DNA of 63,748 nt, counting the filler, from Kipferlia bialata (Eukaryota), in the NCBI GenBank assembly GCA_003568945.1. It is 4 parts of 4 records of this genome, joined end to end, with 100 filler letters (N's around TTAATTAATTAA, not from the genome) between each part and the next. Parts side by side here need not be neighbours in the genome. Positions count along the whole stretch, not along the records: positions 1 to 20,061 come from BDIP01000398.1; positions 20,162 to 40,204 come from BDIP01000399.1; positions 40,305 to 60,345 come from BDIP01000400.1; positions 60,446 to 63,748 come from BDIP01000533.1. One strand, given 5' to 3'. The notes below the pieces were generated by a model. The model made no database searches, was not told the DNA's origin, and was given only the letters and a program-made list of their open reading frames with translations. A program made the translations under genes and the position numbers. Of this stretch, positions 1 through 63,748 are shown piece after piece (the stretch's first letter is position 1; the number at the start of each line of letters is the position of its first letter).

Positions 1-125
1 TGTCCCCCCAGGAATATTCATCCCCCCCCCCCCCCCCCTCTCTCTCTCTGTATGCATTTACTTCCAGGTGTGAGTGCTGTCTTTCTTTCTCTCTCTCTCT
101 CTCTTTCTATACTCTAACCCCCAGG

Positions 126-2730
126 TGTGAGTGCTGTCTCTGTCTCTGCGTCCCTTGGGTACAGGGACAACAGGCACATGGGCCACAGACCCACCCCACC
201 CAAGACACCCCATCCAACACCAGTGTGCAGTGTGAGTAGGTACACACCTCATATATATATATAGGAATATTCATCTATGTCTATATGGAACTGATACTGA
301 TACTGGTACAACTCCACCCAAGACACTACACCCAACACCAGTGTGCGGTATGAGTAGGTTCATATCATACTGTGTATTACTTGTGGACACAGAGAGAGAT
401 AGGAAGAGATCAGTTGTCTAACCCCAGGCTAGACCCCTCCTTCGACACCTCCAGCACCAGGGACGTGGATGCTACAAGACCAGTCAACAGGCATGTATTA
501 ATATACAGCTACATACTATTTCACTGTAATGCAGTGTCCGCACTATTCCGCACTATAGTCCGCACTATAGTGATATATAGTGTCTATGTATATATGTGTG
601 TGTTTGTTATTAACGACAGGCTGCCTGTCCTGAGGCCAGAGGGCAGGAGGGAGATGGAGAGGGAGAGGGAGAGAGAGCGACAGAGGGAGAGAGAGAGAGA
701 GAGGTCCAGTGGGGTTCTCTCCACTGTAGATGAGGGTGTGGAGGTACACTCTGCCAGGGAGGCAGAAGTGATTGAGTACGAGGTAAGCCCACTACCCTTT
801 TTTCTCGTACATTCATATAGTAGTCACTGGTGAGGGAGAGGCAGAGGTGATTGAGTACGAGGTATGGCAATGTGTATAAGCTTGACCCCTCTTCACTGTC
901 ACGAGAATACTAACTTACCACCCAGCCCCCCATACCCACTCTCCTTCTCCCCCTCTTCGCCATAATTACTATGACCCTCTTTCTCTCACCCACCAGCCCC
1001 CCACCCCCATCCCCGCCTCCTTAGTCCCTGCTGTCTCTCTCTCTCTCTCTCTCCCATAGTATTTTGTATCCTAATAGGATAATCCTATTATACATATGTA
1101 TCTCTATACCCCCTTAGCCTTCAGCCCCCCACCCCCATCCCCGCCTCCCTAGTACCCGCTGTCCTCCCAGCTGCCCTGGCCTGTCTGCACTATGATGACT
1201 GCTGCCTCATAGGGGACAATGATCCCCATCCGCAGGTAACCACAGTACTGTGTCTCTCTCACGCTCTCTCTTTCAAGCTCATTTCTAGCCGATCTATCTT
1301 ACTCTCTCACTCTCTCTCTGCGGACCCTTCTTACTCTAGATTGCCAGTCAGACCGGAGCCGACCTCCCAGTCTCCTTGGCAGGTAGGGTCTATATAGTCT
1401 AATACACAAATATGATATGTATTATACAGTACATGGTCTACACTTCACATATCTATTGTTACTATGTGTTGCCCTCTCATTTCCCTGTCCCCGTTATCTC
1501 CGTCTTACACTTCAGGCGAGGACCTTGCTGCCCTTGTGGTGCTGCTGGCCAGGTAATACATTGTCCAATGTATTAACACTATATATAGTCCATTACTCTT
1601 CTATCCATAGTCGATAGAGTATCTGTACAGTTTTTCTGTACAGTATTTTATTACCTCTCACCCCAGGGACAGGCACCGCCGACAGCAGGAGAAGGAGGCA
1701 GGGTATGCCTCTCCCGCTGTTCACAAGGGACAGGGAGGCAGTGAGGGGGGACAGCCCAGCGCACATGAGGAAGATGCAGTGCTGGGTGCGGTATCAGTAT
1801 ATATTCTATGTATATATATATATGTATACTACTGATACTGGGGCACATGAGGATGACGCGGTACTGGGTGCGGACTGTTCTCTCTCTCTCTCTCTGTGTG
1901 TGTCTGTGTGTGTATCTAATCCTCTCCATCCTAACCCCTCAGTCGTCCTGCACTTTCTGACCACCGTCATCCCATCCATGTCGCTCTCTCTCTCTCTCTC
2001 TCTCTCTCTCCAAGCCTTTCTAATTAACAGTTGTACTGCACTTCCTGACCACCGTCATCCCATCCATGTCCAGTGCTGCCCTGACATCTGCCCTGAATGT
2101 GTCAGTGTCAGTGCCTAGGTACTTAGCTCCCTATATGGTAGTGTATACATAGAAGTCCCCAGGACTATTCCTAATATAGTACTGGTCAGAGATGGTGGTT
2201 GTCAGTGCATGAGTACTATCTCATTCTCTCTCTCTCCCGGAACTATTCTAACAGTCAGGAAGCACTACTCTGCCACCAACACCCCCGACAGCGCTCTCTC
2301 CTCCTCCTCCCTAGCCTTCTACCCCGTGGCATCCCATCAGTCCCAGTCGGTGTCCCAGTCCCAATACTCCCAACACTCCCAACACTCCCAACACTCCCAA
2401 TACTCCCAACACTCCCCCGGCAACAGACTGCACCTAGACCACACTGTGGTATCAGAGTCAGAGAGTAGTACCAGTGATGATGAGGGTATAGGGTGTGCAC
2501 CCTGGATCATCACTGAGGGCCAGATCCAGAGGGAGATGAGTGTGATGGAGAAGGACGAGACGTGCACACTGCTGGGTGAGCTATGCTTCTTTGCTAACTC
2601 ATCTCCAAGGGAGAGGGAGAGGGGGGAGAGAGACGGAGGGGAGAGAGAGAGAGAGAGGCAGTGGGAGGCCAAGGAGCGGTACAGACAGGACGAGATTACT
2701 AACGCAGTCGGTGAGTAGTAGTGTTCTCTC

Positions 2731-2765
<35 letters not shown>

Positions 2766-4983
2766 TACCCTAGCCCTCCTCCGTTCCCTCCACTCCTCCT
2801 GCCGTGCCATGACCAAAACCCATGCCAGGCACCGCTTTGCAGTCAGACTCCTGCCCGTCATGCTAGGTACGAGATAGTATTATACACGATACTGAATTCC
2901 TGCAATTCCTTCACTAGATTATATCCACATATATTCTACACGTTATTGAGTGACCCTGATGTCAGGTTCCCTCTGCACCCGCATTGCCAGTGATACCATC
3001 CCACCCTTGCACACTGCTGCTGTGGCATCTGACCTGGTGTCAGACAAGTTCTCGGAGTTCATAGTGGAGGTCATGAACACGTGGCGTAGGTATGTACACT
3101 ATGTATCTTATATATACATTTATATATCCCTGTATAGCCTCTTACCCTCAGGGATAGACTCCCCAGTGCCCACAGTGAGTTACTCCACTCCCACGGTATA
3201 TGCGCCCTGCTACAGTCAGCATCCTCCTCTCTCTCTGCCCTTCTTTGCTGCACACTGCTTGACGCACCTCCCAAGGGCACCATCCCCAACACTTCCGGTA
3301 CCTCACTTCAACGTATATGCAGGCTATGTGGTGTACTGGGCGCTGTCGAGAGCTTCAGACACGGCTATGTCTCCTATGCGCGGGAGGAGTGTAGCACGCA
3401 CTGCCATGGGTATGGAGAGAGGAAGAGTAAGGGAGGGGATAGGAGAGAGGTGTATGGCAGGCTGGTGGTCGCACTGGCGGAGCGCATCGCCCACTATACC
3501 GCCACTACCAGTGTTAGTGCCGCTAGTGGTGCTTCTGCGCCTCCCTCGCCTGTCTGGGAGGTGGGCTCTTCCTGCACACCATCTGGGGAGTGTAAGGAGG
3601 CAGACTCTGCCCTTGGTGATGCGCATCGTGCACTTCTGTGCTGCGTGGGTGCACTCCGGAGGACAGACACCTTCACAGTGGCTAAGGTGCGTATGGACAC
3701 TCTCTATAGACACTCTATACGTATATATATTCAGATAACACACTATTAACTCCCAACTGCTGCTGATACTTTGGTATCCGATTGCTGTCCCTGGACACTT
3801 GACCTCTATTCTTCCTTATATCTCTCTCTATCTCTGTGTGTGTGTCTCCCTTCTTATCTTAGGATCCTGGCCAGCTTGTGCAGACCTTAGTACTATGGTG
3901 TCTGAGGGCATTGGTATACACAGCAAGGGGGGTTACGTCCACTACTAGTGTGTCTAGTGGGACTAGCGGTACTAGTGGGAGTGGTGTTTCTCTCAACAGA
4001 CATTCCTCCAGACCCGCCCTGCATGGGTCAAGTTCCACTACCCTACCCGGCCTTAGCCCCACTGCTACCCCTACCACACCCCCTGCCACATGCACTGCCA
4101 TACCCGTGTCGGTGTCTACACCGGCATCGCCTAGGTATATATAGTATATATAGAGAATAAGAGTATAGATAGAAGGGTGGATATACTATACGTGTTTAAT
4201 GTATAGTCCCTGACCCCAGGGTGTGTCTCACTGCCGACCTATCCTATAGTAGTAGACGTCCTGATTGTTCCATTCACTCACTGATACTATATGTATAATT
4301 CTGTTGTTACCGCCACTAATATCAGGGTGTGTCTCACTTTAGAGCCAGTGGGTAGAGAGCCCACACAGACTACCCCTGAGCTGCTAGAGTTACAGGCCCT
4401 CTCTCTCTCTCCCCCTGTCCTGTCTCCATCTGGGGTAGGGCTGGGTGTGGATGGGGAGGGGTCTGAGATGAGTGTGTCCAGAGTGAGGTATGAGTATATA
4501 GTGTAGTATGTATACTCTATATGAATATCTAACCTCCAGATACTCTAGATCCCGTTTCACCTCCAAGGACTCTCTCTCCCCATCTCCATATACATACCAT
4601 TTACTCAGTAACTGTAGAGTTGCTTCTTACCTATTGCTTACCTCCAGATACTCTAGATCCCGCTCCACCTCCAAGGGGTCTGTCCTGCCATGCCACGAGA
4701 AGGAGGCAGAGGGGGGGTTGGCATTGATGCAGGTATATATGTATGTGTATGTACTATATTATGATATACTTCATTAGACAGATACTATTGATTCCATGAC
4801 AGTATATATGTGTATGTTGATATCTGAAATGAGAAGGAGGGGGGGTTGGCATTGATGGAGGTTTGTCTACTCGCTCTCCCCAATAGATTATATTAATTAT
4901 ACAATATGGCGAAATCACGAGACTACCACATTACTGTCGATCTCACACTCAGACCCTCCACATGCTCCTCCACCTCACCGTGG

Positions 4984-5017
<34 letters not shown>

Positions 5018-6719
5018 GTAATTCTCTCTTTCTTCATTCCGGTCCCCTTACTCTCAGNNNNNNNNNNNNNNNNNNNNNNNNNNNNNNNNNNNNNNNNNNN
5101 NNNNACTCTCAGACCCTCCACATGCTCCTCCACCTCACAGTCGATGTCTCTCTCTCTCTCTATGTAATTCTCTCTTTCATTCTTCCGGTACCCCCTTACA
5201 CTCAGACCCTCCACATGCTCCTCCACCTCACCGTGGATGTGTCTGGCTTCTTCTCATCGGGTACCGTGTCTGGGTTTGACTGTGTCAGTGGCAGGATAGC
5301 AAAGGCAGTGGCCGTGTTGGCAAAGGTACTCATTCTTATTATACCATATAGACATGGTCTAGTGTTCATGTAAGCCATACAATGTATCATGTAAATATCA
5401 ATAGTATGACTATCATCTATTGTATCTGACTTTCCAGACCCAGCCAACTGTACCCTTTGTGGCACCAGCCAGGGAGCGCCGCCAGTCACGTAGGTAACAC
5501 ACGTTTATATACAGTGAATATTATTTGGTACATCTCTATCACCTGCAACTAGATCTCCATGTGTTAAGTCTGGAGCCTGTCAGTTCATATTTTGGTATGT
5601 TTACATATCCTTACTCCAGGCACTCCTTGATGACATCCCCCAGAGTGAGAAAGGGAGAGGTAGACAGGGAGAGGGAGAGAGGTACTAGGAAGAGTGACGC
5701 CTCTCCAGCCAGCCCCCGAAATGCTCTCTCTCCCCGAGGTGATAGTGAGGGAGAGAGAGAGGGTGTCGTGAGAGGTCACACCCGCAGGCGGTCCTCCTGT
5801 CCATCGGGGTCTAGGGTATCACAGGGCAGTGGGCCACGATTCAAGGTAGGAGAAAGTATATATATTCTATGGTATTAATAGGAAGCCAGAGAGGCCAAGT
5901 TAGATAGGGGTTCAAGAGGTATCTATGACTATACAATATGTTGCTATTTCATCCATTAACTCCTAGGTCTCCAAGCGCCCCTTCTCCCTCGATACCATAA
6001 TCACATATATAGACTATACACCATATACTATTATATATAATGTTATATATACTGTATTCTCACCCTCAGGTCTCCAAGCGCCCCTTCTCCCTCGATACCA
6101 TGAGGTGTCAGTTCAGAGAGTTTGCATCCTGTGAGTCCAAGGTCGAGACAGCATTCCTCAAGGTATACACCAGTATACTGCACATACTCATAGTCTATGT
6201 CACTGGATCATGTATCTACCGCCTCCTACACTCTTCATTGGAGTGGGGTCAGGGCTATTCCTTTTCTCCTTCTCTCTCCCTCTGCACCCCCTGTCTTACT
6301 CTCTCTCTCTCTCTCTCCCCCTCTACACCCTTATACCCAGGAGTGGGGCCAGCGCATGCTGAGGTGTGTGGGTGTGTCCTTGGAGGCTGGGTGCGAGGAG
6401 GCTCTACTCAAGGTAGGGGGTACACTCCACTTCTCTCCCCCTGCCTGTGTGTCTTGTTTACACTGAGACACAGTAATATACCTCTCTGTGTCTGTCTGTC
6501 TCTCGATCTCATCATAGGCTCTAGAGATTAGCTATCAGCTCTCACCATCTTACCCCCTCCTTCTTCCTCTCTAAGCCCAGGCCCTTGACACTGGCAATAA
6601 TATCTCTCTCTCTATATATCTTTCTCTGGGCCTGTATATATCTTCCTTCTCTATCTCTCCTCTAACCCTAGGCCCTTGACCCTGGCAAGAAGAGCTGGTG
6701 GGGGAAGATGAACAACTAG
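126..6719 (+). CDS. Multi-exon hypothetical protein, 5' partial (possibly more than one gene)
   Basis: Chain of GT-AG bounded exons. The last three splice in frame to ...VSKRPFSLDTMRCQFREFASCESKVETAFLK|EWGQRMLRCVGVSLEAGCEEALLK|ALDPGKKSWWGKMNN*, with TAG at 6717-6719. No family recognised. Confidence 0.6.
5058..5104. other. Internal assembly gap inside an echo array
   Basis: 47 N flanked by copies of CAGACCCTCCACATGCTCCTCCACCTCAC. Confidence 0.9.
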
Positions 6720-7720
6720 AGGCTCTGAATAGGAGAGAGAGAGAGAGAGAGAGAGAAAGGTGTGGTGACAGGCTACTGTGCACTGTTTGTGTGCCCATTG
6801 CTTGTCACCGTATGACTTGTGTAGAGTGTTTACACAGTTGTTTTGCCGTTTGCAGGTGTCTTTTTGACACTTGACAGTGTGTTTTGTGTTGGTGATTGAT
6901 CTTGATTGGTATGGTTTGGATGTCTTAGTGTGATGTGTCTGTTCACAACTTGAACGAATAGACTTTGATGATTGATTCCAAAGATTGATCGATTGATGAT
7001 ATTCATACTTGATTGATGTTCCGTTGATGGTGGCTGGAACTGTCGAGTGAAGATTTCACTCCACAGTTCCAATCGGGATCCTGGCTCAATTGATCTAAAG
7101 GTGCAGCCCTCATCCACCCTGAGAAGACCATCGCACAGGATGAACACGGCCACTGAATGTCTCTCCCTTCCTTTCACACACGGCATAGCTAAGCTTAGTC
7201 ATCTATGAGCATATACCATGGCAACAGTACAAAAGGGACATCAGGAAGAGACCCCCACCAAGCAGTGTACTACCCCTGCCTCACTGGGACAGGGGCTCAC
7301 TGCGAAAGTATCCAGAGTACAGTGTACACAGCACTGCCACTAGGTATAGACGTGGAGGAAGCACTGTAGACTCACTGTAGAGACTTGTTTACATATGATA
7401 CAGCATATTCACTAATGTGCCCTACTAACACAGATGGCCTGTGTCCCTTGCACCCAGTGCTAGAAGAGACATGTCCAGACGGCCAAGGGTGGACAAGCTG
7501 TAGAGGATGGAATTGATATTCGATAGAGTCAGACGAAGTGATCATCATATGTAAATCTGGGTGTAGTCGGCGCAAGATACCAACGACGGTGTGTACGGTT
7601 ATTATTGTGACTCCATTAGAGAGTAGTGACAATGAGTCTTTATGAGCGCGTTAGGGTTAATACAATACAAAAAAGAACCCTGATGGATATGTGGGTCCAT
7701 CTTACAGTCTGTCTTGGTAT

Positions 7721-10700
7721 CTATGGAGCTATATCCTCTCCCTCTCTATCTCTGCGAAGACATCCTCGACTGGGGGAACAGGGGGGATAGCAGGGCTGGT
7801 GTGAGGAACTTGCCTGAGTATATACGAAATTCTATAGAATATATATAGTGTCAATACCTCACGTGTGGGTCCCCCAGCTCTGTCTCCAGGAACAGGGATA
7901 GTACATCATATAAGTACACAACATGGTATATATACATATATAGTAAACACAGTGTATATACTATCCTAACCTTGCATGTACATCCCCCAGCTCTGTCTCC
8001 AGGAACAGGGACAGTCCATCACATGTGTATACTATATACTATATACTATGTAGTACATACATATCCATACCTTACATGTACATCCCCCAGCTCTGTCTCC
8101 AGGAACAGAGATAGTCTCTCGAGGAAGACCCTGGGGGTGAGGGAGAGAGTGTGCGTGTGTGAGAAAGAGAGAGACGGAGACAGGATATGTACATGTATAC
8201 CACTCACTACTGTACATTACTCTATTTACCTGAAGTGCCTGGCCTCTATGTCGTTGCGGTGCATATACTACTACCTAGAAATATATACAAGCACCACTCT
8301 ACACACTGTATATTCTATACCGTCTATAACATCTACCTGAAGTGCCTGGCCTCTATGTCGTTGTGATGTGCCCCCTTGAGCCATAAGGGTGTGACTGCTA
8401 GGGTGGGGACACTCCGGTACACAGGGGTAGGTCTAGCCTGTCTGGCACAGCTACTGCTAGATGCACCCATGGACATGCATGAGGTGGGTGCACTGTCCTC
8501 TCTCTCTATGGTGGGTGAGGAGTCACGCTCCTGTAGCCACTCGTCTGACCGCTGCTTCAGCCTGGTGGTCAGGGAGATATACATGAGATATACACTATAC
8601 ACCATATACATATATACAATAACAGACAGAGCTTCAGGCTGTAGAGTGAGTATGTGAGTAATGGAGGCATTGTGTGTATTGCTGACTGTAGGAACTATAG
8701 GAACTATACCTGTCATAGAGTAGCTCTGCGTTTCTGAATGCAATGATCTCGTCCTCTGTGCCATGGATAAGTAGGGTGGGGCAGGAGACCTGAGAGAGTC
8801 TAGGGTGAGAAACATAAATATAAATCTGAATATATATACAGAGAGAGAGAGAGAGAGAGTGCCATGGATCAACAGGGTGGGGCAGGATACTTTGGATAGT
8901 CTAGAATGAGAGGCAGAGAGTAAGGTAGAGAGAGACTATATGGCTGGAGACCAGGGACAGGCAGGAATGTGAGAGGCAGAGGCAGAGAGAGACCACCTGA
9001 TGTCGTTTCTGAACTGATCAAAGGGCAGGGACTTGGTAAAGAAATATATATATATATACTGATACGTACAAATATATATATAGACATACATATACATCTA
9101 GACATACATATCTGGAATACCTGATGTCGTTTCTGAACTGGTCAAAGGGCAGGGACTTGGTAAAAATTAATATATATATACTGATACGAACAATTAAAGA
9201 CATAGATATACATATAGATATACATATCTGGAATACCTGATGTCGTTTCTGAACTGGTCGAAGGGCAGGGACTTGGCACCCAGGGGGGAGAGCTTGGCAG
9301 CCACTCTAGAGTTAGACACATACTCATGAACATGTATATACATATGGAGTATATATCTGGTATATAATTACTCAGAGCAGAGATACAATAGTATCATTGC
9401 CCTGCTAATACACAAGTAAAAATATAGGATCTATATCCCCATACCTGTATGCCGATGCCAGTGGTGACTGCATGCTACATATTTATGTATATATTTATGT
9501 GTGAATGCATATCATATATAGACATCTCTATTAATACTGGATCAATCATATCACACCTGTATGCCGATGCCAGAGGTGACTGCATGATGAGACCAGCTAT
9601 CTGGGGGGTGAGAGGAGTAATACATAGAGAGAGAGAGACAGAGAGAGACATAGAGAGAGATAGATGACTGTATGATGAGACCGGATATCTTGGGGGTGAG
9701 AGGAGGAGATGTATAGACATGTAGGGAGTATAGAGAGAGAGTATCTGGGGGGGTGAGAGGAGGAAAGGTATAGTAATGCTTACCATATGGTCATGGTTAA
9801 TAGAGAGAGAGATAGGGGTAGTAGTACCTCCGGATACTCATGTGCTATGAGTGATGCGGGTGCTGTCCCTATGGACCTGCCCATGCACACAACATCAGAA
9901 ACAGACACACCAAGGTCAGAGACTGGTATAAGGGTGGGATATTTATATATATATAGAGAGAGAGAGTATATATATATATAGAGAGAGAGAGAGGGAGAGA
10001 GAGAGAGACAGAGAGAGAGAGACGCTCCACATACACGTACCTATGTACTCCATGACCTTCCTCACATCCCTGTAGAGTGTGACCTCGTTGGCGTCCCCTG
10101 TGCTCTGGCCAAACCCTTCATAGTCAAACAACACAACCTGGCAATAAGGGGGTAGAGGGAGAGAGAGAGAGAGAGAGAGAAAGAAAGATAGAGGGACAAG
10201 CCCTTCATAAACACGACATGACAATAATGGGTAGAGAGAGAGAGAGAAGACACTGTGAGTGTAAATGGGGAGGGGGGGGTCTATACTATATACAATATAG
10301 TAATGCCCACCTGCACATTCAGCTCATCCCTGAGGTAGATGGCCAGGCTGGTGCAGTCTGATATATCCTCTGCATTGCCATGGCAGTACAAGAGGGTGTA
10401 TCTGGCCTGATATAAGATTATTATTACAGAGAGAGAGAGTGTGTGTGAGCGACAGTCTGATATATCCTCAGCGTTGCCATGGCAGTACAGGAGAGTGTAT
10501 CTGACCTAGAATTAGTATAGGGGGAGGGGTGGAGAGAGAGAGGGGGGAGAGAGAGAGAGAGAGACCTCTGCGTTGCCATGGCAGTACAAAAGGGTGTATC
10601 TGGCCTGCAGTTAGTATAATATTGTCATTGTATGAGAGAGAGCGACAGAGAGGTAATGCCCACCTGTGCATTTGGGATGACCTTAACAGCGACCTTAATC

Positions 10701-11136
10701 TCCTCGTCACCCGGCACAGGGTGTCTAAGGGTTAGAGAGGTACATACATCCAGGGAGAATGGGGGAGAGAGAGAGATTATGACATTCATCACCTGGGACA
10801 GGGTGTCTGAGGGTTAGTATTACATACGTATATATATATACAGAGAGAGAGAGGGTGGGGGGGCGATTATGACATTCATCGCCGGCACTGGCAGAAGGTC
10901 TAAGGTAAAGAGGTACATACATCTAGGAAGGGGGGCGGGGGGGGAGAGAGAGAAGACCACCTGGGACAGGGTGTCTGGACTGTTCAGCTGAATCAGGTAC
11001 TATCAGACATACCTTGCAGGTGCACCACTTCCACGTCACTCTCCACATCACTCTCAACACCTGGTACGCGACATCCAACGTATGATGCGTGAGACGGGGT
11101 TAGGGTGCATGCTACTGTCTGGTGTGGTAGGGTCAT
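7721..11136 (-). CDS. ABHD17-like alpha/beta hydrolase (depalmitoylase family), multi-exon
   Basis: Spliced product contains YTLLYCHGNAEDI, VVLFDYEGFGQSTG, nucleophile motif GRSIG, GLIMQSPLAS, CPTLLIHGT and WLKGAHHNDIE, all matching the ABHD17 family. Start codon is approximate. Confidence 0.85.
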
Positions 11137-12025: not shown

Positions 12026-13991
12026 CTAGAGGGATATGCCCATGTCGAAGGGGTCCAGCATCCCTGAGGCCAGGGCTGGGGGTGAGGTACAGGGGTGGGA
12101 TATGTCATACATATGATACTCATGGAGGTGTAGATATAGCCCGAGTCTGGTATCGTACACCAGGTATCTGAAACATGACAGCACTCGCACACACAAATAC
12201 CCCCACACCACTCCCTACCTGGGCTCTCTGTGCCGTCCACCCCCACAAACCTGGGCCCCTCCAAGTGTCTGGCCTTGGACTGACTGGGGTGGGACAGGGG
12301 ATAGGCTGTGTAGAAGGATAGAGGGGAGACCATACCTGGACGGGGGGCTGAATGTGTGTGAGAGCACGACCCACAGGGATGTCTCAACTACATTGGCCAG
12401 AGACAGGATCAGGTACAGGGTGTTCTGGGACATCTGGACAGTCAGTATAGAGGGAGGGGGGGGGAGAGAGAGAGAGAGAGTATGGTATGGTATGTGACTA
12501 TACTAGGACTACCATACCCTGCCGTTGTTCACTAGCATCAGTAACCCACACATATAGACACACTGCCATTGATACCTTTCCGTTGTCCTCCAGGACAGCA
12601 GACACACTGAGGGACACAAACAGTGGGAAGGACAGGAAGATGACATTCTCAACACGCCTCCTGGGGTGGGGGTACATAGGAAGTATATTCACTTAAACAC
12701 TATGCCCCACTATTATCAGTGACTAACTATAGCAGTAAAAACAATACCACATCAACTCACCGTGTCTTGTAGAGTGTCTCGTTCCCAGCGTAGTGTCTCT
12801 TGGCCAGCTCTGCGTTGACTTGGACCCTTGCAGACACAAACACAGCCATGAGCACAGTGACGGCAACGGCACCTGGCAGTAAGGGTCTATGTACACAGTG
12901 CAATATGGATATATATACACAACAACTATATACTATCCTATATTACCAAAATAGGGCCAAGGCATGTTCAATCTGTACTCACCTAACCAGATACCCACAG
13001 TCCAGTAGTGCTGGGACAACTCGAAAAGCCTGGAGGGAGGGAGAGCGAGAGTGTGTGAGAGAAGTCCTGGATAGAGAAGTTGGGAGAGTACGGGTACTTA
13101 CAAATATCCAATACAATACAAATAGTAGTATAGTAGACTACTATTAGTAGTATAGTCGAATGAAACGTACCATCCCTCCTCCACGTCTGTCATGATGGCT
13201 GTAAGGGCCAGTATGCCACCAACTGAGGGTGAGGGGTGGAGGGATAGTGATATGTATATATCTCTTGGGCACACAGGCATATCTCTCTCTAGTCATTCCA
13301 TAATGGAGGTGCGTACCTAGCAGGGCTGTGACCCCCAGGCCTATCACTACGGCAGACGATATCTGATGTGAGGACAGAGACTATAGACAACAGAGCCACA
13401 AGTGTCGACAGAAATACAAATGTTTAACAATAGATACTGGCAGCCCCACATACCGTGGCATGACGCGCCAGCCTATCGAACACCCTCTGCCCGATGAGGC
13501 CCCTCCATATCTGGATGTAGAGCAGAGGCAGCAGCTGGTACACACACACAGTCGACATGGGGATGAAGGTGTTGGCGATGGTGGTGATGACACCGTGCAC
13601 GTGCTCCTTGTCGAAGCTGTCTGGGAACTTGTGGATGTCAAAGGCATCCAGGGTGGCAAAGACGTCTCTCAGGAAGGAGGGCACAAAGTTGCATCCCAAT
13701 AGGATGTACAGGGCAGTCACCAGGAAGGTGTAGGCCCTGGGGTTCCAGGATGTCTCACCCCTCCTCTTCTTGGCCTTCATCACTGGCGGTAAGAGCCTCT
13801 CTTAAAGAGACAGAGAGAGAGGGGGGGATGGTGTGGGGGGGGGAGGAGTGTACACATACACACAAGGAGACTGTCATACCCAGTAGATTGAAGATGTGCG
13901 CTAAGAGGCAGACCAGGGCAACCCCTGTTGCAATCAGCACATATGTACGAGACCCCTCGTCACTCTCATGGGTATCCTCTATCTGGACCAT
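12026..13991 (-). CDS. Multi-pass membrane protein with about 7 TM helices (7TM/GPCR-like topology)
   Basis: Spliced exons give about seven hydrophobic segments, from YVLIATGVALVCLLAHIFNLL to TLYLILSLANVVETSLWVVL. Paralogous to the gene at 20526-22127. Confidence 0.65.
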
Positions 13992-14256
13992 CGGTATAGA
14001 GAGAGTAGTTGGGACTCTCGCTTGATCACGGTCAGAATTTTTGAAACCATAGAATCTAAGGGTTCAACGTCTCAACGGCGAAAGAGCTAACTTCAGAATG
14101 AATCTTGCATCACCTCTTCTCAATTGAGAGTCTCAAGGACTCAGAGAGAGCACAGTATATTGTGGGTGTTGTGCTTGCAGTGACCAGTGTCAGCGAGCGC
14201 TTCCTTTTCAGGAACCGAGAGTGACAACTTCTTTGCGGGGAGTTGTCCTCAGCAAC

Positions 14257-14914: not shown

Positions 14915-14945
<31 letters not shown>

Positions 14946-23040: not shown

Positions 23041-23074
<34 letters not shown>

Positions 23075-38096: not shown

Positions 38097-38130
<34 letters not shown>

Positions 38131-38964: not shown

Positions 38965-39002
<38 letters not shown>

Positions 39003-40304: not shown

Positions 40305-40384
40305 TATACTATGTATACTATATATATACTATATGTATACTATATATATGCTATATATAGATGTGTATATATATATATTCTACC

Positions 40385-41531: not shown

Positions 41532-41562
<31 letters not shown>

Positions 41563-46961: not shown

Positions 46962-47029
<68 letters not shown>

Positions 47030-47668: not shown

Positions 47669-47706
<38 letters not shown>

Positions 47707-49423: not shown

Positions 49424-49454
<31 letters not shown>

Positions 49455-50617: not shown

Positions 50618-50650
<33 letters not shown>

Positions 50651-53600
50651 AATATATATGTCAACTGAATGCTAATCTCTGACACCTCATGTCCTATTGT
50701 ATCTCTTCTGAGTTGCGTCTACCTCCCCTCCCCCACTCATATATTCCAATTGATCTCATCTAACTCCCCCTCTCACCCTACCTCCCCTCCCCCACTCATG
50801 CATTCCAATGAATCTCATCTAACCCCCCCTCTCACCCTAGGTCTCTGACCGCTTCGAGGTTGCTGTCACCCAGACCCCCTCCGGTGCATTTGAGCAGATA
50901 TCATTCGTCAACAGCATCAACACATACGCAGGGTGGGTGTTGTTGTATCTCTCTCTATATATATATACACGCATATATGTATATAGTCCAATTGTCCCCA
51001 TGTGGACTGTGTGGCACATCTCCAACTCTCTCTCTCTCTATCTCTCTTTCTCTCTCTATATATACATTATTATGAATACATCTCACCCCAGTGGCTCCCA
51101 TGTGGACTGTGTGGCGGACCAGCTCATGAAGCCTATCCAGGACGAGGTATGGAGTATATATATGTATATATATATATGTGTATATGAATATATATGTGTG
51201 TACAATGTATTAGTATGACATCCCCCTCATTCCCGACGAGGTATATATATACCCTATTGTCAGTTCATGTGAATGTAGTTAAATACTTTTACATATGATT
51301 AGTAATTATAGTATTATGATAGTATTATAGTACTTAGTGTGACATCCCCCTCATTCCCAGGTCATGAAGAAGTCCAAGCTGGGCAAGGACGAGAAGCCAC
51401 CCTCCAAGGGACAGGTTGGTACTACCTGCATATGTGTATATGCCTGTATTAGTGCATGTATATGCATCTGCACTTTGCTGGTCTCGGTTTGTCACATGTT
51501 GCATCTATACTGGCACTCTCCTACTGTGAAGTCTTATTCTCTAGTGACTCACTTCCAGGTCAAGAGCAGGATCTGGCTCTTTGTGAGGTCCCTGGTCATC
51601 AACCCATCCTTCAACAGCCAGGTGCCCGCTTCTCTCTCTCCCTCTCTCTCTTAGTTTGATATATGCATTCTCTCTCTAGATTCGATACGGTGTCTGTCAC
51701 CTCCTGGCAAGCAACCCCTCCTTAAGCACCCCTCCCCTTTGCTCTATCGCAGTTTCCATCTCCTCAATACATGGTCCTACAGTATCTCTCTCTAGCCCCT
51801 TATTTTAGGCCAAGTCTGTACTTGGCACCACCACCTCCTCCTCTCTCTCTCTCTCTTTCTCTCTCCCTCTAGCCCCTTATTCCAGGCCAAGTCTGTGCTT
51901 GGCACCACCTCCTCCTCCTTTGCCATGGACTGCCAGATAGCACCTGCATTCCTCAAGGTGTGTCCATAAGTATATATGTCAATACACACATGTATATTGT
52001 TACGACAAGAATATGTGCTGAGTGAACACCCTCTCACTATGTTACTATTCCTTCCTCACCCTCTAGAAGATTGTCAAGCTCCCCCTCCTCGCTGACATTG
52101 TGGATCTGGCCATCGTCAACAGGTACTAATTAACATATATATACATATATGTATACATATATAGATATATACGCATATATATATATAGGATATTTACAGT
52201 TATATGCTGACATTGTGGATCTGGCCATCGTCAACAGGTATTTGAGTATAACCATAATAGTATTGTGTATATACATGTTTCTATACCCATTATCATACAC
52301 ATGCATATATATATATATGCTGACATTGTGGATCTGGCCATCGTCAACAGGTATGTGTGATGATAACACTATCATGTATCATATATCGTATATCATAAAT
52401 ACGAATATATATATTATGGATATGTACTTTTATATGCTGACATTGTGGATCTGGCCATCGTCAACAGGTATGTATATTTGAATGGACGCATATTATTTAA
52501 TGCATCACATATATATGATGCGAATTATTAGTATGTTTGATCGTGAATGGCTTTTCTATCTTGCGAATGTGTGTATATTTTACCACTCATCCCAGGTCCA
52601 AGGAGCTATCTGTGTATAATGCTCAATATTAATATGCCTATAATAATCTAGGTATTGAATGTATTATTATATATATCATTAATACTCACCCCAGGTCCAA
52701 GGAGCTGAAGACTCACTGAAGAAGAGTGACTCTCATTCATATGTATACTTTATGTATATTACACATATCTATATTTACTATATATATATATTTACTATAT
52801 ATTTATATATCAACTGTACTCACCCCAGGTCCAAGGAGCTGAGCAAGAGTGATGGCACTTTTCTAACTATTCTGTGTATAATGCTCAATATTATTATATC
52901 TATGATAATATATATATCATTTCTTACTTACCCCAGGTCCAAGGAGCTCAAGAAGAGTGACGGCACCAAGAAGGCCAGGGTGAGGGGCATTCCCAAGCTG
53001 GATGACGCAAACCACGCAGGACAGGTGGGTATCTACAATATATATATGAAGAGTGTATATATATATCATATATCAAAATTAATGTGCATTATACATATGT
53101 GCCAAGCTGGATGACGCCAACCACGCAGGACAGGTGGGTATGCATTTGTATTAACATATATACCCCCTCTCAACCGCTGTATCTCCTTTATGAATATATA
53201 TACACCCCATATGCACCTAACATCCAGGGCAATATCATTATACTATATATATATATATATATATATATTATTCTATACAATATAATATTGTATTGCATTA
53301 ACCCCCAGGGCAAGAAGGCCCAGCAGTGCACCCTTATAGTATATATCACTATAGTCATAATGTCTCTCTCTCTATATATATGTATGTATATACCCCCTAA
53401 TCCCCAGGGCAAGAAGGCCCAGCAGTGCACCCTCATTCTGACAGAGGGAGACTCTGCCAAGACACTCGCTGTGGCAGGTATATATATATACATACATATA
53501 TACATATATATTTACCCATACTCCCAACCATTTATGCATTTAGAGACTCTGTCAAGATACTCGCTGTGGCAGGTATGGTGTTGAGTATATACATCCTATT

Positions 53601-54936
53601 TCCCACCCAAACACCATACGCTCCTCTGTCCTTCCACTACTCTGACCCCCTAGGTCTTGAGAATGTGGGCATAGACCCAACCCACTCATACACATATATA
53701 TATGTACCTAAATATACTATATACATACAGTGCGTATTCCTTTCTGACCCCCTAGGCCTTGAGATTGTGGGCAGAGACAAGTACGGAGTGTTCCCACTCA
53801 GAGGTATGTGTATGGATATGTATAGGTATACAGAAAACACACACATATATATATCAAGTGCACAGTTTGACAAATATCTACTCTGAATATTTGGTTCATT
53901 TGTATTACTATGACAGTGTCTCACCTTCAGGCAAGATGCTGAATGTCAAGGGTTTTTCTGTATTACTTCAAGTGTATTTATATATTGTTTGTGAGTACCA
54001 ATCTATCTCACCCTCAGGCAAGATGCTGAATGTGAGGGGCGCCAAGGCCAAGCAGATTGCAGAGAACACTGAGATCTCGTACATCAAGCAGATCATGGGT
54101 GAGGACTGCAACCCACATGCTATTTATACCAGTTACTAGAGACCAGATGGTTAAGCATATCCTCCTCACACCTAGATCTCAAACAGGGCGTGGACTACTC
54201 TGATACAATGATTGATTGATCATACGTCTATATATATACGTGTGTAGATGTGTATGTGTATTCTCATCTATCAGGTCTCAAGCAGGGCGTGGACTACTCT
54301 GATGATGCCAACTTCGCCCGTCTCAGATACGGGCACATCATGATCATGGTATGTTGATATGTATTCAGATTTCCTTGATAAGTAAATACTCCTCCGGTAC
54401 TGTGTGCAGAACTCAATACCCATCTTGACTTTGCATACTGTATCATGTTCGTATCCCGCAATCCTGGTCGACCAGGATCCTATTGTATAGTAGAAGTGTA
54501 TATATAGCATCACAAAACCTTATGCCAGGTTGATCAGGATCACGATGGATCCACACATAAAGTATAATGTATATACAATGTATATATAGTATTCTATCCC
54601 CTCATTTCAGGTTGAGCAGGATCCAAACATAATAATGTATAATGTATATATAGTATTTCTTTAGTACATATATTGTACCAACCTCTCATGCTTGATATAT
54701 ATATATATTGTCTATATAGCATCATATCCCCTCATTTCAGGTTGATCAGGATCACGATGGATCCCACATCAAGGGCCTCGTCATCAACTTCATCCACAGG
54801 TGGGTAGGCCTGAATTCTTATGTTATAGGATACTTATGCACATGTGTATGTGTGCTTCCGCGTTGTAGTGTATCCATGCTTATTGTATACATATTGACGT
54901 TTCAGGTTCTGGCCCATCCTCCTCAAGAGGCTTGCC

Positions 54937-54989
<53 letters not shown>

Positions 54990-55605
54990 ATATATGTGTA
55001 TATGTATGAGTATATGGGTAGCACACATATACTCACCTTCAGGTTCTAGCCCACCCTGCTCAAGAGGCATGCCCCATTATATATACACCTATATATATAT
55101 GTATATATATATGTATGAATCTGATACCTATATCAGTCCTATATATGTATCTCACCATTAGGTTCTGGCCCACCCTGCTCAAGAGGCGTGGCTTCCTGGT
55201 TGAGTTCATCACTCCCATTGTGGTGGCCAAGAGGGGGACAGGCAGGAACCAGAGGTCGGATGTACGGGGACTTAATATATACAGTGTCTCTCTGTATTTT
55301 CTATTCTCACGGTCAGACCTTCGATACCAACCCCTTTTATACATGTTTACTCTATATATATAATAATGTATTGTATTCTTACTGTCAGACCTTCTATACC
55401 ATCCCCTAGTATATGTGTTATGTCTCTCTCTATATGTTGTATATATACTCTAATCACCACCAGACCTTCTACACCATCCCCGAGTACGAGGCCTGGCGTG
55501 ATGCCCTGAGCCAGACGGACAAGAGGGGGCTGGCCGTCAGATACTACAAGGTATGGGCATGTATATACTATATTATATATATATGCATATACTTTAATGA
55601 TTATG

Positions 55606-55636
<31 letters not shown>

Positions 55637-56555
55637 GGCGTGATGCCCTGAGCCAGACGGACAAGAGGGGTCTGGCAGTCAGATACTACAAGGTATGGGC
55701 ATGTATATACTATATATACTATATATAGATATATGTTAGTATGGGTATATATGAGTATGACAAAGGGGTCTGGCAGTCAGATACTACAAGGTGTGTATAA
55801 TGATATTCCGCACTGCAGTATGTCGCTGCGACACACAGTCTTATCCCAGGGACTTGGTACCTCCACACCAGCTGAGGGCAGGGCATACTTCAGGTACCGT
55901 TGAATGTATATGAGTATAAGGCTGTATACTATCTAGTTCATGGATACAGAATGAGTTCAGGACAACATTCGTCGTAGCAAATCTCCAGTTCCTGTTAGTC
56001 TGTAGTATCTATATTCTCTACAATGTTATCATTCCTATGAAGATCTGCCATCTCATCTCCAGGGCACTCACATCCAACAAGAAGCTGTTCAAGTTCGACC
56101 ACCAGACAGGTGAGGACATAGATAACGTTGACTTCCATCATCTAATTTACATTATAAAACAATTTACTGATCTGTCTGTGTATATATGAGTGTGGCACGA
56201 TGCTGTTCAAGGGTCGGCCACCAGATACTCGAGTTTCTATACACAAGATTGTCAATGTAGTGCACTCTTCCATTCACCTGATCTCCAGACCGCTCCATGG
56301 ATAGCTATAATACATTATCACACGTATACTCACCTAACTCCCAGACCGCTCCATCGAGCTGGCCTTTGCCAAGGGAGTGGGGGCAGCCGCCGCCAGAAAG
56401 GTATGTATACTATGTATATAATGTGTACATATATATATGTTGAATTAGTATTAAATATATATTTATGACATATGACTATCTTTGTATATACTAAGGGAGT
56501 GGGGCCAGCAGCTGCCAGAAAGGTATCATCATCAATTTGATTGTGTATTCTAATA

Positions 56556-56586
<31 letters not shown>

Positions 56587-57211
56587 TCCTCAGGGCTGGC
56601 TGGCCAACACTGACCCCAACGTCTACCTGGACCAGAGTGCCAAGCAGATCTCATACTCAGACTTCGTCAACAAGGTAGAGTTATATATATGGGAGTATAT
56701 GCACATGTATCAGCATTTCAACGTTAACCTTCCTCTGATATCTCTCTGCTCTGACAGACTCGTACAATTCTTTAGACCTTCTCTCTCATCATCAGGAGCT
56801 TGTTCTCTTCTCCAGTCTATGCACATTAGTATATAATAGATGTACATGTATTATTCATTAGTATAACTCATCATCAGGAGCTTGTCCTCTTCTCCATCGC
56901 TGACAACCTGCGTTCCATCCCCAACATCATGGACGGTACGTGTATGTATATATTAGTATATATGTCATTGACTGCTATTCGTGCGTCTCACACCAATATC
57001 TGTTCGTACATATATATTACATGTATCACTCTCTGCCTGACCCCCCAGGTCTCAAGACTGGCCAGAGGAAGATCATCTTCTGCTGCTTCAAGCGCAACCT
57101 GACCACAAGGTGGGTCTTATCTCAATTTCTAGTTGTGAGATGATGTCCTCTCTTCCGATATTTTCTAGTAAACATAAGTGTTATGTCACAACCTTGGGTC
57201 TCTATCTCCCC

Positions 57212-57252
<41 letters not shown>

Positions 57253-57306
57253 TGTGTGTGTATACCCTTGTTCTGACCCAGCATCAAGGTTGCCCAGTTC
57301 AGTGGG

Positions 57307-57337
<31 letters not shown>

Positions 57338-60178
57338 ATGCATGTATATATACACTTTCTCTAACCCAGCATCAAGGTTGCCCAGTTCAGTGGGTATGTG
57401 TCTGAGCATGCCTCGTACCACCACGGAGAGCAGTCCCTGGGAGGGGCCATTGTGGGAATGGCTCAGGTATGGATGTGTCGTGATAGTATACATACATGTA
57501 TGTATACTATTGGTTAATAGGTTATACAGTCACTGGGAGGGGCCACTATATATCTGTAGACTCTGTGTTGCAGTATCATTATCAGTATCAGTGTTTCAAT
57601 TGTATGTTATTGTGAGCATGGTCCCGTATGAGTATATGTGTACATGAGTGTATATTCCAATGTACGGCACAGTGTATGTTTCCGCTCTCTCCCCCTCTCC
57701 CCCTCAGACCTTTGTGGGCAGCAACAACCTCAACCTCCTGGTGCCAGATGGGCAGTTTGGAACAAGGTACTTACTGTGTAGTTAACAATATACATATAGT
57801 ATATATGTACCAATATATATAGTATTGTATATGTATCAAGGGTCCTGGTGCCAGATGGGCAGTTTGGAACAAGGTACTTTCTGTGTATATATATTATATT
57901 TCACTTTTACACTAAATGTGTACTGTGTGTAATGATGCGCCAGATGGACAGTTTGGAACAAGGTAACTAATACATTCCATGCTACGAGAGCCATATATAT
58001 ATAGTAGAAGTGAATGGGGTTGTAAAACACTCTACAAGTCCTATAATTGTATATCTATTGTATTATATGTATATTAATGACTCTCACCCCAGGCTGCACG
58101 GAGGAAAGGACGCTGCCTCCCCAAGATACATCCACACACGCCTCAACCCCCTCACTCGGTACGTGTAGAATACTAAAGTAATTCATAGGATTTGTATATA
58201 TGCACGCTATTATGTATATGATCAATATGTAGAGTATGATCTGTCTGACCCTTAGCCTTGTGTTCCCTGCTGCCGATGACCCCCTGCTGCACTACCTCAA
58301 CGATGACGGACAGTCCATCGAGGTGTGTGTCGTACAAGTTCATTTGTTTCATATATACCATCATCTTACCCATCACGAGTACTACATGCCCATCATACCC
58401 ATTCAGTATATATATGTATAGTATATGTAGAATATATACATATATATCTAGTGTATCATGATCATCTTACCCAGCCCGAGTACTACATGCCCATCATCCC
58501 CATGGTCCTGGCCAACGGGGCAGACGGTATCGGCACAGGTATGGGAGTATTTTAGTAGATATATATATTAGTAGATATATATATTAGTAGATATATATAT
58601 TAGTAGATATATACCTTCCACTATACCCAGTGCCCTGAGCCAGTACATGTTAGTCACTGAATGAACTCTAACACCAGGCTATGCCACGTCCATCCCCACC
58701 TACTATGTATCACTATAGACTCATCCCTATATATATTGTCTTTATGTACCCTGACATTCTAGGCTATGCCACGTCCATCCCCACCTACGACGTGTCTGAT
58801 CTCATCAGGGCAGTCAGAAGGAGACTCCTGGGAAGGTATTATATACACATTATATATACATAGTATACACATTATATATATTGACTGACTATATATACTA
58901 GTGTGTCTGAGCTGATCAGGACAGTCAGAAGGACACTCCTCGGGAGTTGTGTTTAGTATGGAGTATTCTATCCTATATACCTCCACTCTGGAGTATATGA
59001 ATGTCAACCAATCTTTCTCTCTGTTGTCTGTGTATATATGATAATGTGTATACCTGTCACCTTAGGAGCACTGTGGAGGAGGTCACTGATACAAGTATTC
59101 ATATGCTAATTCGTTAATATGTATATATACTAATGTATATGTATACATACACTAACATCCCAGGAGTACTGTGGAGGAGGCCACCGACATACATCCATGT
59201 TAATGTATATATATGTATATTACGTATTTCTCTGTATTCATAGTATGTGTGCCTTAGGTATGTCTAACGCCTCAGTAGTATATATATACTAAAGTGTATA
59301 CATCTTACTTCTCAGGAGCACTGTGGAGGAGGCCACCGACATGCACCCCTCCTGGAACAAGTGGACGGGGGTATCCACTGCAAAGAGGAACAAGAAGGGT
59401 GAGAAGAGTGTGCTCTGTATATAAGGAATGTCTCTGTATATAAGGAACAAGAAGGGTACGTCGCAGCATCTGCCTCTAAACTAACACTCTTCTGTGTATA
59501 TATGTAAGGCATATGTAAGACAGGAGTGTCTAGTGCCAAGAGGAACAAGAAGGGTGAGGGAGTGCATCTACCACCATGAATCCAACACTCTTCAGATCAC
59601 AATGTACATATATGTGTTTACATGTCTCATTCTATGCCAGGTCTCTGGTTTCTCTGTCAAGGCCCATATAGTAGTGTGATGTATTTACGTATATATACAT
59701 ATGTATTCCTACATCTTACATCAGACCAGGTGTCTGGTTTCTCCGTCAAGTGTGATGTACTAATGCAAATATAATGAATCATATACAAGTAGAATCTTAT
59801 TGTCTCACTGTAGGCCAGGTGTCTGGTTTCTCCGTCAATGGTCTCATTGTAGTGTATGTAAATAGTTTTATGTATTAATGTCTCATACCAGGCCAGGTGT
59901 CTGGTTTCTATGTCAAGTGCCTCATATAGCTATGTATATATGTATTTGTATAGTTATGCTTATACACATATCTAATACTAGGCCAGGTGTCTGGTTTCTC
60001 TGTCAAGGGCCTTATTGTAGTGTGATATAATAGTGTATATGCAAATAGTTTTATGTATTAATGTCTCATTCTAGGCCAGGTCTCTGGTTTCTCTGTCAAG
60101 GGCTCCTGGAGAGAGACTGGCCAGGACGAGATCCTCATCCACGAGCTGCCCATCAGAGTGTGGACACAGGCCTACAAG
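46124..60178 (+). CDS. TOP2: DNA topoisomerase II (type IIA), about 40 exons, 3' truncated at scaffold end
   Basis: Spliced motifs: EHALKRPDTYI, LFDEVIVNA, NDGPGI, TSSNYDD, GGRNGYGAKLANIFS, IPKLDDAN, LILTEGDSAK, YGVFPLRGKMLNV, MVDQDHDGSHIKGL, YYKGLGTS, RSIPNIMDGLKTGQRK, YHHGEQSL, active site GGKDAASPRYI, and ELPIRVWTQAYK. Confidence 0.97.
52091..52470 (+). repeat. Four identical 35-nt copies of a TOP2 exon end + donor with unique spacers
   Basis: GCTGACATTGTGGATCTGGCCATCGTCAACAGGTA at 52091, 52206, 52319 and 52436. Confidence 0.95.
59636..60100 (+). repeat. Six copies of a TOP2 exon start
   Basis: CCAGGT(C/G)TCTGGTTTCT..GTCAA about every 80-95 nt. The last copy is the complete exon. Confidence 0.9.
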
Positions 60179-60509: not shown

Positions 60510-60895
60510 GCCTTTGTCCGTGGCACTGTGTACTCCCAGCAGTTCGTGCTTGAGACCACCGAGGGCGGCACCAATGTCACCTACATCACACACTCCTCCC
60601 CCGAGGGCAGGATCCCCGCCGGACTCTACAACAAGTGAGTACTGCTCTCTCTCTCTCTCTCTCCACACATATTGTCACTGGAGACTCTACAACAAGTGAG
60701 TGTACTACCCTCTCTCTCTCTCTCCCCCTACACCCCTAATGCCAGGCTCCTCAAGAACCAGGCCATGACCATCTCTCTCTCTCTCTCCCTCTCTCCCTCT
60801 CTCTATCTCTCTCTCCCTACACCCTTATTGTCAGGCTCCTCAAGAACCAGGCCATGACCATCGACAGGATCAGGCAGGACATCGTCAAGGCCTAA
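60510..60895 (+). CDS. START (StAR-related lipid transfer) domain protein, last two exons
   Basis: Exons 60510-60634 and 60835-60895 give AFVRGTVYSQQFVLETTEGGTNVTYITHSSPEGRIPAGLYNKLLKNQAMTIDRIRQDIVKA*, matching the START C-terminal pattern (VRG...T.VTY..H..P.G.IP...N). Confidence 0.75.
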
Positions 60896-63280: not shown

Positions 63281-63461
63281 TCAAAGAGAGGTATTGCCTT
63301 GTGGCTCACTATTAGGAGACAACTGGGGTGCAAAGCTAGCCTCGTAGTGAATCTGGATGTGGGGTATCAGATACTTGTACTGGGCCCTGAAGAACGCGTC
63401 GGAGGCAGGGTGGTGCTCGCAGGGCTCCCGCATACCCTTCTGCATAAGTAGCCAGAACTCC
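63281..63461 (-). CDS. Probable exon of an unidentified gene
   Basis: Typical acceptor (ctacacccttatcgtcag) with two upstream echo copies near 63522 and 63585, followed by a GC-rich open stretch. Reading frame uncertain. Confidence 0.35.
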
Positions 63462-63476
63462 TGACGATAAGGGTGT

Positions 63477-63510
<34 letters not shown>

Positions 63511-63748
63511 GTGTATCAGGCTCCAGAACTCCTGACGATAAGGGTGTAGGGAGAGAGAGAGAAAGAAGTAGAGAGAGAGATGTATAAGTAGCCAGAACTC
63601 CTGGTATTAAGGGTGTAGGGAGAGAGAGTGAGAGTGCGAGAGAGAGATATGTGTTCCAGATCTGGGTGAAGTTTCCTGCTAGTAAGTACAAGGACAGGTA
63701 GAGTTGGGGGGGGGGGGGGGAAGAGAGGGTATTGAAACATGGCTGACC

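What the first reader, a model, noticed from the sequence alone, without database searches (positions are those of the whole stretch)
63..63604. Pervasive polar 'exon-boundary echoes' inside introns
Seen: on all four scaffolds and both strands, introns hold partial copies (about 15-60 nt) of the adjacent exons, usually with the splice site intact. Polarity held in every case I traced: exon-3'-end+GT copies follow the real donor, and branch+AG+exon-5'-start copies precede the real acceptor. Examples: 63 vs 121; 8995/9119/9236; the 30358-30740 cluster; 38758-39152 x4; 46640/46745/46860; 57735-57965 x3; 60683 and 60742. Copies are typically about 75-130 nt apart, similar to an ordinary intron here. 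Inference: an intact protein needs the outermost donor/acceptor pair despite near-perfect inner decoys. That points to an unusual splice-site selection rule or stepwise (nested/recursive) splicing, plus an ongoing junction-duplication process. I know of no description of this as a genome-wide architecture.
Basis: partly seen in the sequence, partly recalled or inferred. Interest (0 to 1): 0.92.

Follow-up and report, generated by a model that had tools for sequence, protein, structure and literature searches.

The report
Half-exon echoes fill protist introns
In this stretch of the free-living protist Kipferlia bialata, most introns of several genes hold roughly half-exon copies with working-looking splice signals that the one mRNA checked skips, and because the copies differ from the real exon mostly at silent codon positions they are likely leftover ends of other functional alleles that DNA repair stacked into the introns.

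Summary
Real, and stranger than reported. In 150 modelled introns I found 88 acceptor and 79 donor echoes and none of wrong polarity (control 7 of 4,034); 93 introns carry one, three genes carry none. Contigs from a DNA run reproduce the arrays letter for letter, so they are not joined haplotypes. A probable RNA contig of topoisomerase II is spliced at the outermost sites. Polarity is the automatic result of head-to-tail units crossing one splice site. Recursive and nested splicing fail for most introns; 'outermost across the intron' equals 'nearest across each exon', so exon definition is the likely rule, although the inner pair spans a normal 120-nt intron with equally strong sites. New here: echoes differ from their exon mainly at synonymous sites (pN/pS 0.19; plain copy-and-drift gives about 0.47), keep branch signals and stop near mid-exon, yet their spacers are mostly unalignable. 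They look like ends of other functional alleles captured by recombination; no second strain was available to test this. Precedent: the human F7 minisatellite. This scan noted junction copies before, in one sea-urchin gene.

The parts
46141..60178 (+). DNA topoisomerase II gene, 41 modelled exons; 58 echoes in 31 of 40 introns
   Evidence: open 937-aa frame; database name of P0002; offsets of 8 listed X2 pieces match the model up to exon 34
22726..39483 (-). large gene (kelch-like repeats, weak Pfam hit), 45 modelled exons; 73 echoes in 38 of 44 introns
   Evidence: stop-free 1,059-aa model; Kelch_3 E 0.003, below cut-off
40384..46027 (-). coiled-coil-like gene, 16 exons; 13 echoes in 9 of 15 introns
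   Evidence: stop-free model
125..6720 (+). gene of unknown family, 21 exons; 12 echoes in 8 of 20 introns
8082..10724 (-). gene with hydrolase-like motifs (label recalled; no Pfam hit for one exon); 7 echoes beyond the uncertain first intron
12219..19874 (.). three echo-free genes with short introns (median 100-107 nt): internal contrast
64..82 (+). acceptor echo of the exon starting at 125
   Evidence: print
8997..9160 (-). two 40-nt donor echoes of exon 9305-9237
27694..27990 (-). three 51-nt donor echoes; with the exon they show three different Ile codons at one site
30362..30631 (-). three donor echoes of exon 30778-30715; three different Gly codons at one site
38873..39151 (-). three acceptor echoes of exon 38778-38705
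46643..46783 (+). two acceptor echoes of TOP2 exon 46863 (first has lost AG)
47044..47292 (+). split-exon case: acceptor echo (27 nt) and donor echo (20 nt) together rebuild exon 47143-47186 with 3 nt overlap
52206..52467 (+). three 32-nt donor echoes identical to the exon, with strongly diverged spacers
57843..57962 (+). two donor echoes of exon 57708-57766
59636..60010 (+). five acceptor echoes of exon 60075; the public protein model ends in one of them
60683..60773 (+). donor echo and acceptor echo in one 200-nt intron (scaffold 4)

Best explanation
The introns contain real head-to-tail units of about 100 nt, each holding about half an exon with its splice signal plus about 70 nt of intron; the TOP2 mRNA skips them, likely because splice sites are paired across each short exon, and the units are likely ends of other functional alleles added by imprecise recombination. 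Step 1 (shown): the arrays exist in DNA. Step 2 (shown for the dominant TOP2 contig): splicing joins the outermost sites. Step 3 (inferred): the GT and AG nearest to the full exon win, as in exon definition; inner-site products mostly carry stops and would be removed by decay. Step 4 (pattern shown, cause inferred): echoes evolved under coding and splice-signal constraint after parting from the exon, so their lineages were working exon ends on other chromosomes. Step 5 (inferred): exons are the only good homology between alleles whose slippage-rich introns diverge fast, so repair or crossing-over that starts inside an exon and resolves out of register leaves a half exon plus part of an intron; unequal exchange within the echo then grows, shrinks and refreshes arrays.
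For: DNA: 8 listed X1 contig pieces match with 0 differences and 0 gaps at depth 320-414 and bridge 14 of 48 echoes in the laid stretch by 31 nt or more on both sides. RNA: all 7 listed X2 joints are GT..AG at outermost sites, 5 of them over echoes; 8 listed pieces keep a constant offset to the model, and carry the exon letter at 25 diagnostic sites of 13 echoes. Decoys are strong: best echo scores at least as high as the real site in 31 of 60 acceptor and 29 of 57 donor families; innermost GT..AG span median 120 nt (n=90) versus 119 for echo-free introns (n=51); no folding difference at echo sites. Inner-site use gives a stop by the next exon in 128 of 152 cases. Coding constraint: differences by codon position 68:52:236, 220 synonymous to 136 non-synonymous, pN/pS 0.19 (bootstrap 0.15-0.23, 115 families), similar in 5 genes; simulations through the same detector give 0.94 (neutral) and 0.46-0.49 (copy, then exon and echo drift); changes on the echo lineage alone are 56:47 synonymous against 27% expected; arrays hold 3 synonymous codons at one site. 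Branch motif kept in 61 of 87 echoes versus 67 of 1,308 other intronic AGs, often as a different variant. Spacers: 23 of 215 pairs related, 6 of 82 single-echo cases (about 4 by chance). Acceptor echoes never exceed 61% of exons under 130 nt. Metamonads lack NHEJ and fornicates Rad51A (PMC8516963 section 8).
Against: No second allele was seen: X1 shows no heterozygous or paralogous letters in the laid stretch, two metagenome scans found nothing, both protein clusters have one member. In the RNA-checked part of TOP2 alone the excess (36:31) beats neutrality (P 6e-6) but not the copy-and-drift expectation (P 0.08). Spacers need 0.4-0.6 substitutions per site or more plus indels to lose their signal, well above synonymous divergence (0.19), which demands very fast intron change or old spacers with refreshed echoes. 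Synonymous counts are Poisson (dispersion 0.94), not the geometric spread of a neutral coalescent. U1-70K, U2AF35 and SF1, usual cross-exon bridging factors, were not detected in K. bialata (PMC6679479 supplement 9). Fewer echoes beside exons over 200 nt (1 of 14 versus 114 of 242) is confounded by gene (4 of 21 versus 16 of 49 within g1+g8). One X2 row lands on an echo (53025 to 53543) and one loose end resembles echo plus spacer at 49177. X2 is only guessed to be RNA and contigs drop rare isoforms.
Confidence: 0.5

Rival explanations
1. Plain tandem duplication from the sister chromatid, then neutral drift, with slippage erasing the intron part; splicing as in the best explanation.
For: 24 of 161 echoes have an alignable intron flank; related spacers within arrays show 5 gaps per 100 nt; 14 indels and 4 stops show decay; splice-proximal intron positions are more alike than unrelated sites.
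Against: Predicts pN/pS near 0.47; observed 0.19, and 0.15 even in the alignable class. Does not explain 56:47 on echo lineages or kept branch motifs. By my own reasoning (not simulated), conversion within one chromosome also gives about 0.5.
Confidence: 0.15
2. Echoes are under present-day selection because they are translated at times, through repeat-guided RNA joining or DNA deletion between exon and echo in some cells or stages.
For: Explains coding constraint, Poisson synonymous counts, several codons per array and saturated spacers at once; two X2 rows touch echoes.
Against: Dominant X2 contig has exon letters at 25 of 25 diagnostic sites; no echo-to-exon deletion joint among the listed X1 joints (18 joints not shown); no GT follows the acceptor echoes consistently (sample).
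Confidence: 0.15
3. Recursive or nested splicing removes these introns stepwise through the echo sites.
For: Inner pair spans a normal-sized intron with strong sites; 53 of 78 donor echoes read AG|GT.
Against: AG|GT is background: exons end in AG in 46 of 57 echoed versus 67 of 86 others, and start with GT in 11 of 60 versus 14 of 83. A usable regenerated site exists for 9 of 78 donor and 8 of 87 acceptor echoes. Inner-first nesting needs both echo types, present in 24 of 91 echoed introns, with no association. Does not explain codon bias.
Confidence: 0.08
4. Assembly artefact: two haplotypes joined head to tail.
For: Predicts exactly the synonymous excess and unalignable introns; the published draft of this species is a short-read assembly (PMC5874029 section 7); one array flanks a gap (5058-5104).
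Against: Separately built X1 contigs run through spacer-echo joins with no difference at even depth; such joins exist in neither haplotype. Echoes hold frameshifts and stops. X1 may be the same sample as the window, and only 14 of 48 echoes were bridged in the pieces shown.
Confidence: 0.04

Closest known systems
Human F7 intron 7 37-bp minisatellite (PMC1557585; abstract and Discussion read)
   Same: Head-to-tail copies span the exon-intron border; five to nine equal donors follow, only the most upstream is used, and the silent ones are functional.
   Different: One locus, donor side only, homogeneous units. Here both sides, 93 of 150 introns, units with unrelated spacers and codon-biased differences.
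Cross-exon proximity rule of exon definition (PMC9225289; abstract and first part of Results read)
   Same: With equal competing sites, those nearest across the exon win.
   Different: That paper finds the opposite (cross-intron) preference for short introns in human; here the inner pair spans about 120 nt and still loses, in a protist with a reduced spliceosome.
Intron gain by tandem genomic duplication or break repair with direct repeats (search listing only: PMC3443670, PMC4202315; details recalled)
   Same: Exon sequence duplicated at intron borders by local duplication or repair.
   Different: Those create new introns; here existing introns lengthen by about 97 nt per event and the repeat is half an exon.
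Recursive splicing and stwintrons (recalled; PMC8469720 seen as listing only)
   Same: Extra splice sites inside an intron.
   Different: AG|GT ratchets are not enriched and most introns have echoes on one side only.
Junction copies in one sea-urchin gene
   Same: Exon ends copied head to tail into introns.
   Different: One gene, about one end in six by that note; here 119 of 300 ends, with RNA, DNA-read and codon evidence.

Membership tests
Splice-site-spanning tandem repeat with silent pseudo-sites (F7 type) | head-to-tail copies that include the splice site | tested here: met
   167 polar copies, 0 wrong
Splice-site-spanning tandem repeat with silent pseudo-sites (F7 type) | only the site attached to the full exon is used | tested here: met
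   dominant TOP2 contig only
Splice-site-spanning tandem repeat with silent pseudo-sites (F7 type) | whole unit is homogeneous (minisatellite) | tested here: not met
   23 of 215 spacer pairs related
Splice-site-spanning tandem repeat with silent pseudo-sites (F7 type) | pseudo-sites work when the real site is mutated | not testable with these tools
   only matrix scores
Exon definition | nearest sites across the exon are chosen | tested here: met
   holds for both donor and acceptor side
Exon definition | cross-exon bridging factors present | tested here: inconclusive
   published table: SR proteins, U2AF65, U1A, U1C present; U1-70K, U2AF35, SF1 not detected
Exon definition | site mutation causes exon skipping; fails on long exons | tested here: inconclusive
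   echo rarity beside long exons is confounded; skipping not testable
Recursive splicing | AG|GT ratchet with usable regenerated site | tested here: not met
Nested (inner-first) introns | inner intron with its own donor and acceptor | tested here: not met
   both echo types in 24 of 91 echoed introns
Neutral tandem duplication | copy decays without codon bias beyond exon drift (pN/pS about 0.5-1) | tested here: not met
   0.19, CI 0.15-0.23
Inter-allelic ectopic recombination product | echo and spacer match another allele | not testable with these tools
   no second strain found
Introner or other transposon | spacers form a dispersed family | tested here: not met
   spacers of different introns served as the null and resemble each other only in simple repeats; window only

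The most novel reading that the evidence does not exclude
Kipferlia replaces exons in place: a whole exon with about 70 nt of flanking intron on each side, taken from another allele, lands in the middle of the resident exon, and the two halves of the old exon stay behind as the echoes. Introns would then be layered records of past alleles, grown exon by exon, and tolerated only because a reduced spliceosome defines exons. Acceptor and donor echoes meet within 7 nt in 11 of 25 doubly echoed exons (P 0.011-0.20 by null).
Probability: 0.25. Interest if true: 0.95.

Novelty: new variant of a known kind. Interest (0 to 1): 0.84.

Why it matters
It is a natural, many-locus version of the duplicated-splice-site experiment in a lineage whose relatives have almost no introns, and it comes out against the short-intron rule; that makes exon versus intron definition testable in a reduced spliceosome. 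It suggests a route of intron growth driven by recombination between alleles, and a single haplotype that stores synonymous variants of other alleles. It also corrupts annotation: the public TOP2 protein has two echo-derived insertions and ends in an echo, so intron counts, protein lengths and gene absences reported for this species may be off.

Tried and rejected
No whole genome was held, so 'genome-wide' rests on four scaffold pieces. Metagenome scans by an acceptor motif (0 matches) and by TOP2 (14 pattern hits, none confirmed) gave no relative. No run is on record as RNA; X2 is a guess. Reads were laid on 46100-58800 only. RNA folding does not hide echo sites (59 donor, 59 acceptor echoes in three genes, introns up to 500 nt). 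Echo and spacer lengths are uncorrelated, so no fixed unit length. No clear age gradient along arrays (33 arrays, P 0.17). Junction microhomology could not be separated from erosion. A hard 35-nt cap seen in TOP2 did not hold in other genes (up to 58 nt). Pfam on single exons gave only weak kelch and DUF3382 hits. Rows dropped before counts: g2 first intron, g5, and introns with N. Literature: nine searches listed no description of this architecture; in PMC5874029 the passages for intron, repeat and splic do not mention it and 'duplicat' does not occur (section 7 read, whole text not read; its supplements not opened); PMC6679479 and PMC9933649 seen as passages. Subscription journals and preprint supplements were not searchable.
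Full report
Source. The window is four scaffold pieces of an intron-rich eukaryote. Two window exons match database proteins named Kipferlia bialata, one at 100% identity, the other a DNA topoisomerase II. No whole genome was held.

Observation. I built a 41-exon TOP2 model with an open frame and eight further models with a small gene finder and hand edits. Aligning each exon to its two neighbouring introns gave 88 acceptor echoes, 79 donor echoes, 6 internal hits and none of wrong polarity in 150 introns; non-adjacent pairs passed in 7 of 4,034. 93 introns are echoed; three genes with 20 introns have none. Each echo adds 97 nt (r 0.89, 141 introns), copies lie about 100 nt apart, and echoes are about 30 nt, at most 58, even beside a 516-nt exon. 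Polarity follows from geometry: if a head-to-tail unit crosses one splice site, the copy joined to the rest of the exon is always the outer one.

Not an artefact where tested. On 46100-58800 the eight listed contig pieces of DNA run X1 match the window with no difference or gap at depth 320-414 and bridge 14 of the 48 echoes there by at least 31 nt on both sides (481 pieces were not shown). Such spacer-to-echo joins exist in no single allele, so joined haplotypes cannot make them. X1 may be the window's own sample.

Splicing outcome. One 5,175-nt contig of run X2 (guessed to be RNA) is the spliced TOP2 message. Its 7 listed joints are GT..AG at the outermost sites, 5 of them across echoes, and its 8 listed pieces keep a constant offset to my model up to exon 34. 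At 25 positions where 13 echoes differ from the exon it has the exon letter. Against: one row places part of exon 21 on an echo, which I read as an aligner choice, and one loose end resembles echo plus spacer; contigs hide rare isoforms.

How the right sites are chosen. The decoys are good: the best echo scores at least as well as the real site in 31 of 60 acceptor and 29 of 57 donor families, and the innermost pair spans a median 120 nt, like echo-free introns at 119. Recursive splicing fails: AG|GT is not enriched and a usable regenerated site exists for 8 of 87 and 9 of 78 echoes. Inner-first nesting needs both echo types, found in 24 of 91 echoed introns. Folding does not hide echo sites. 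What remains is that the outer pair of each intron is the inner pair of each exon. In human, exon-defined competing sites follow cross-exon proximity and short introns follow cross-intron proximity (PMC9225289); the F7 minisatellite shows the donor-side case (PMC1557585). I infer exon definition, helped by decay of errors (128 of 152 inner-site products meet a stop by the next exon). The published protein table lists SR proteins and U2AF65 but not U1-70K, U2AF35 or SF1 for this species, which weighs against the classical bridge, though echo-broken gene models could hide them.

The unexpected part. Echo-versus-exon differences fall 68:52:236 on codon positions; 220 are synonymous and 136 not. 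pN/pS is 0.19 (0.15-0.23 over 115 families), alike in five genes and across substitution types. Simulated neutral echoes give 0.94 and copy-plus-drift 0.46-0.49 in the same detector. Where the exon and a second echo agree, the changed echo still shows 56 synonymous to 47 other, against 27% expected, and single arrays hold three codons for one residue. The RNA-checked part of TOP2 alone (36:31) rejects neutrality but not copy-plus-drift (P 0.08). Echo acceptors keep a branch motif in 61 of 87 cases versus 67 of 1,308 other intronic AGs, often in a different variant from the real site. Yet spacers are mostly unrelated: 23 of 215 pairs, and 6 of 82 single-echo cases; simulation shows this needs at least 0.4-0.6 substitutions per site plus indels. 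Decay also exists: 14 indels, 4 stops, and non-synonymous counts are overdispersed while synonymous counts are Poisson. Echoes end near mid-exon, and in 11 of 25 doubly echoed exons the two halves meet within 7 nt, which is suggestive only.

Mechanism. On one chromosome only one copy can be the working exon end, so by my reasoning copying or conversion in place cannot push the ratio much below 0.5. Lineages that were both under selection must have sat on different chromosomes, or the echo is still used. The mRNA evidence argues against regular use, so I favour capture from other alleles: exons are the shared homology, recombination starts inside them, and out-of-register resolution leaves half an exon with part of an intron; unequal exchange then builds and refreshes arrays. 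Metamonads lack NHEJ and fornicates lack Rad51A (PMC8516963), which makes unusual homologous repair plausible but does not show it. No second allele was found, so this step is untested.

Novelty and verdict. The elements are known; the density, the two-sided form in a short-intron protist and the coding imprint were not found in nine literature searches. The scan holds an unchecked note of similar copies in one sea-urchin gene. The public TOP2 protein is misled by echoes at three places. Observation confirmed; first reading partly supported; new variant of a known kind; interest 0.84.

Noticed in passing
46030-46140: A minus-strand gene and TOP2 both lose their 5' ends at a short G-run/C-run segment; the X2 contig has 134 further 5' letters that do not lie next to 46139. 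Possible misjoin.
   Followed up: partly
12219-13960: The echo-free membrane-protein gene P0001 is on record under three accessions on three contigs, so the echo-free block may be a recent multi-copy segment.
   Followed up: no
55657, 57283, 59897: The public TOP2 model includes two echoes as exon sequence and terminates in a third.
   Followed up: yes
428-620: Likely GC-AG intron (donor GC at 491) keeps the frame of the first gene.
   Followed up: partly
all modelled introns: Branch motif sits fused to the acceptor, a few bases before AG, as described for diplomonad introns (PMC6679479 passages).
   Followed up: partly
46141-60178 versus 12219-19874: Echo-rich genes have more AT-rich introns and more TA runs (36-38% GC, 9-12% TA runs) than echo-free genes (44-49% GC, 1-5%).
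   Followed up: partly
24436-24700: Near-perfect 76-nt whole-unit tandem copies: a recent expansion of an echo array.
   Followed up: partly
49075-49177: One X2 loose end looks like acceptor echo plus spacer: possible leaky use of an echo acceptor or retained intron.
   Followed up: no
4942-5205: An echo pair flanks a 47-N gap; this one array may be partly a scaffolding duplicate.
   Followed up: no
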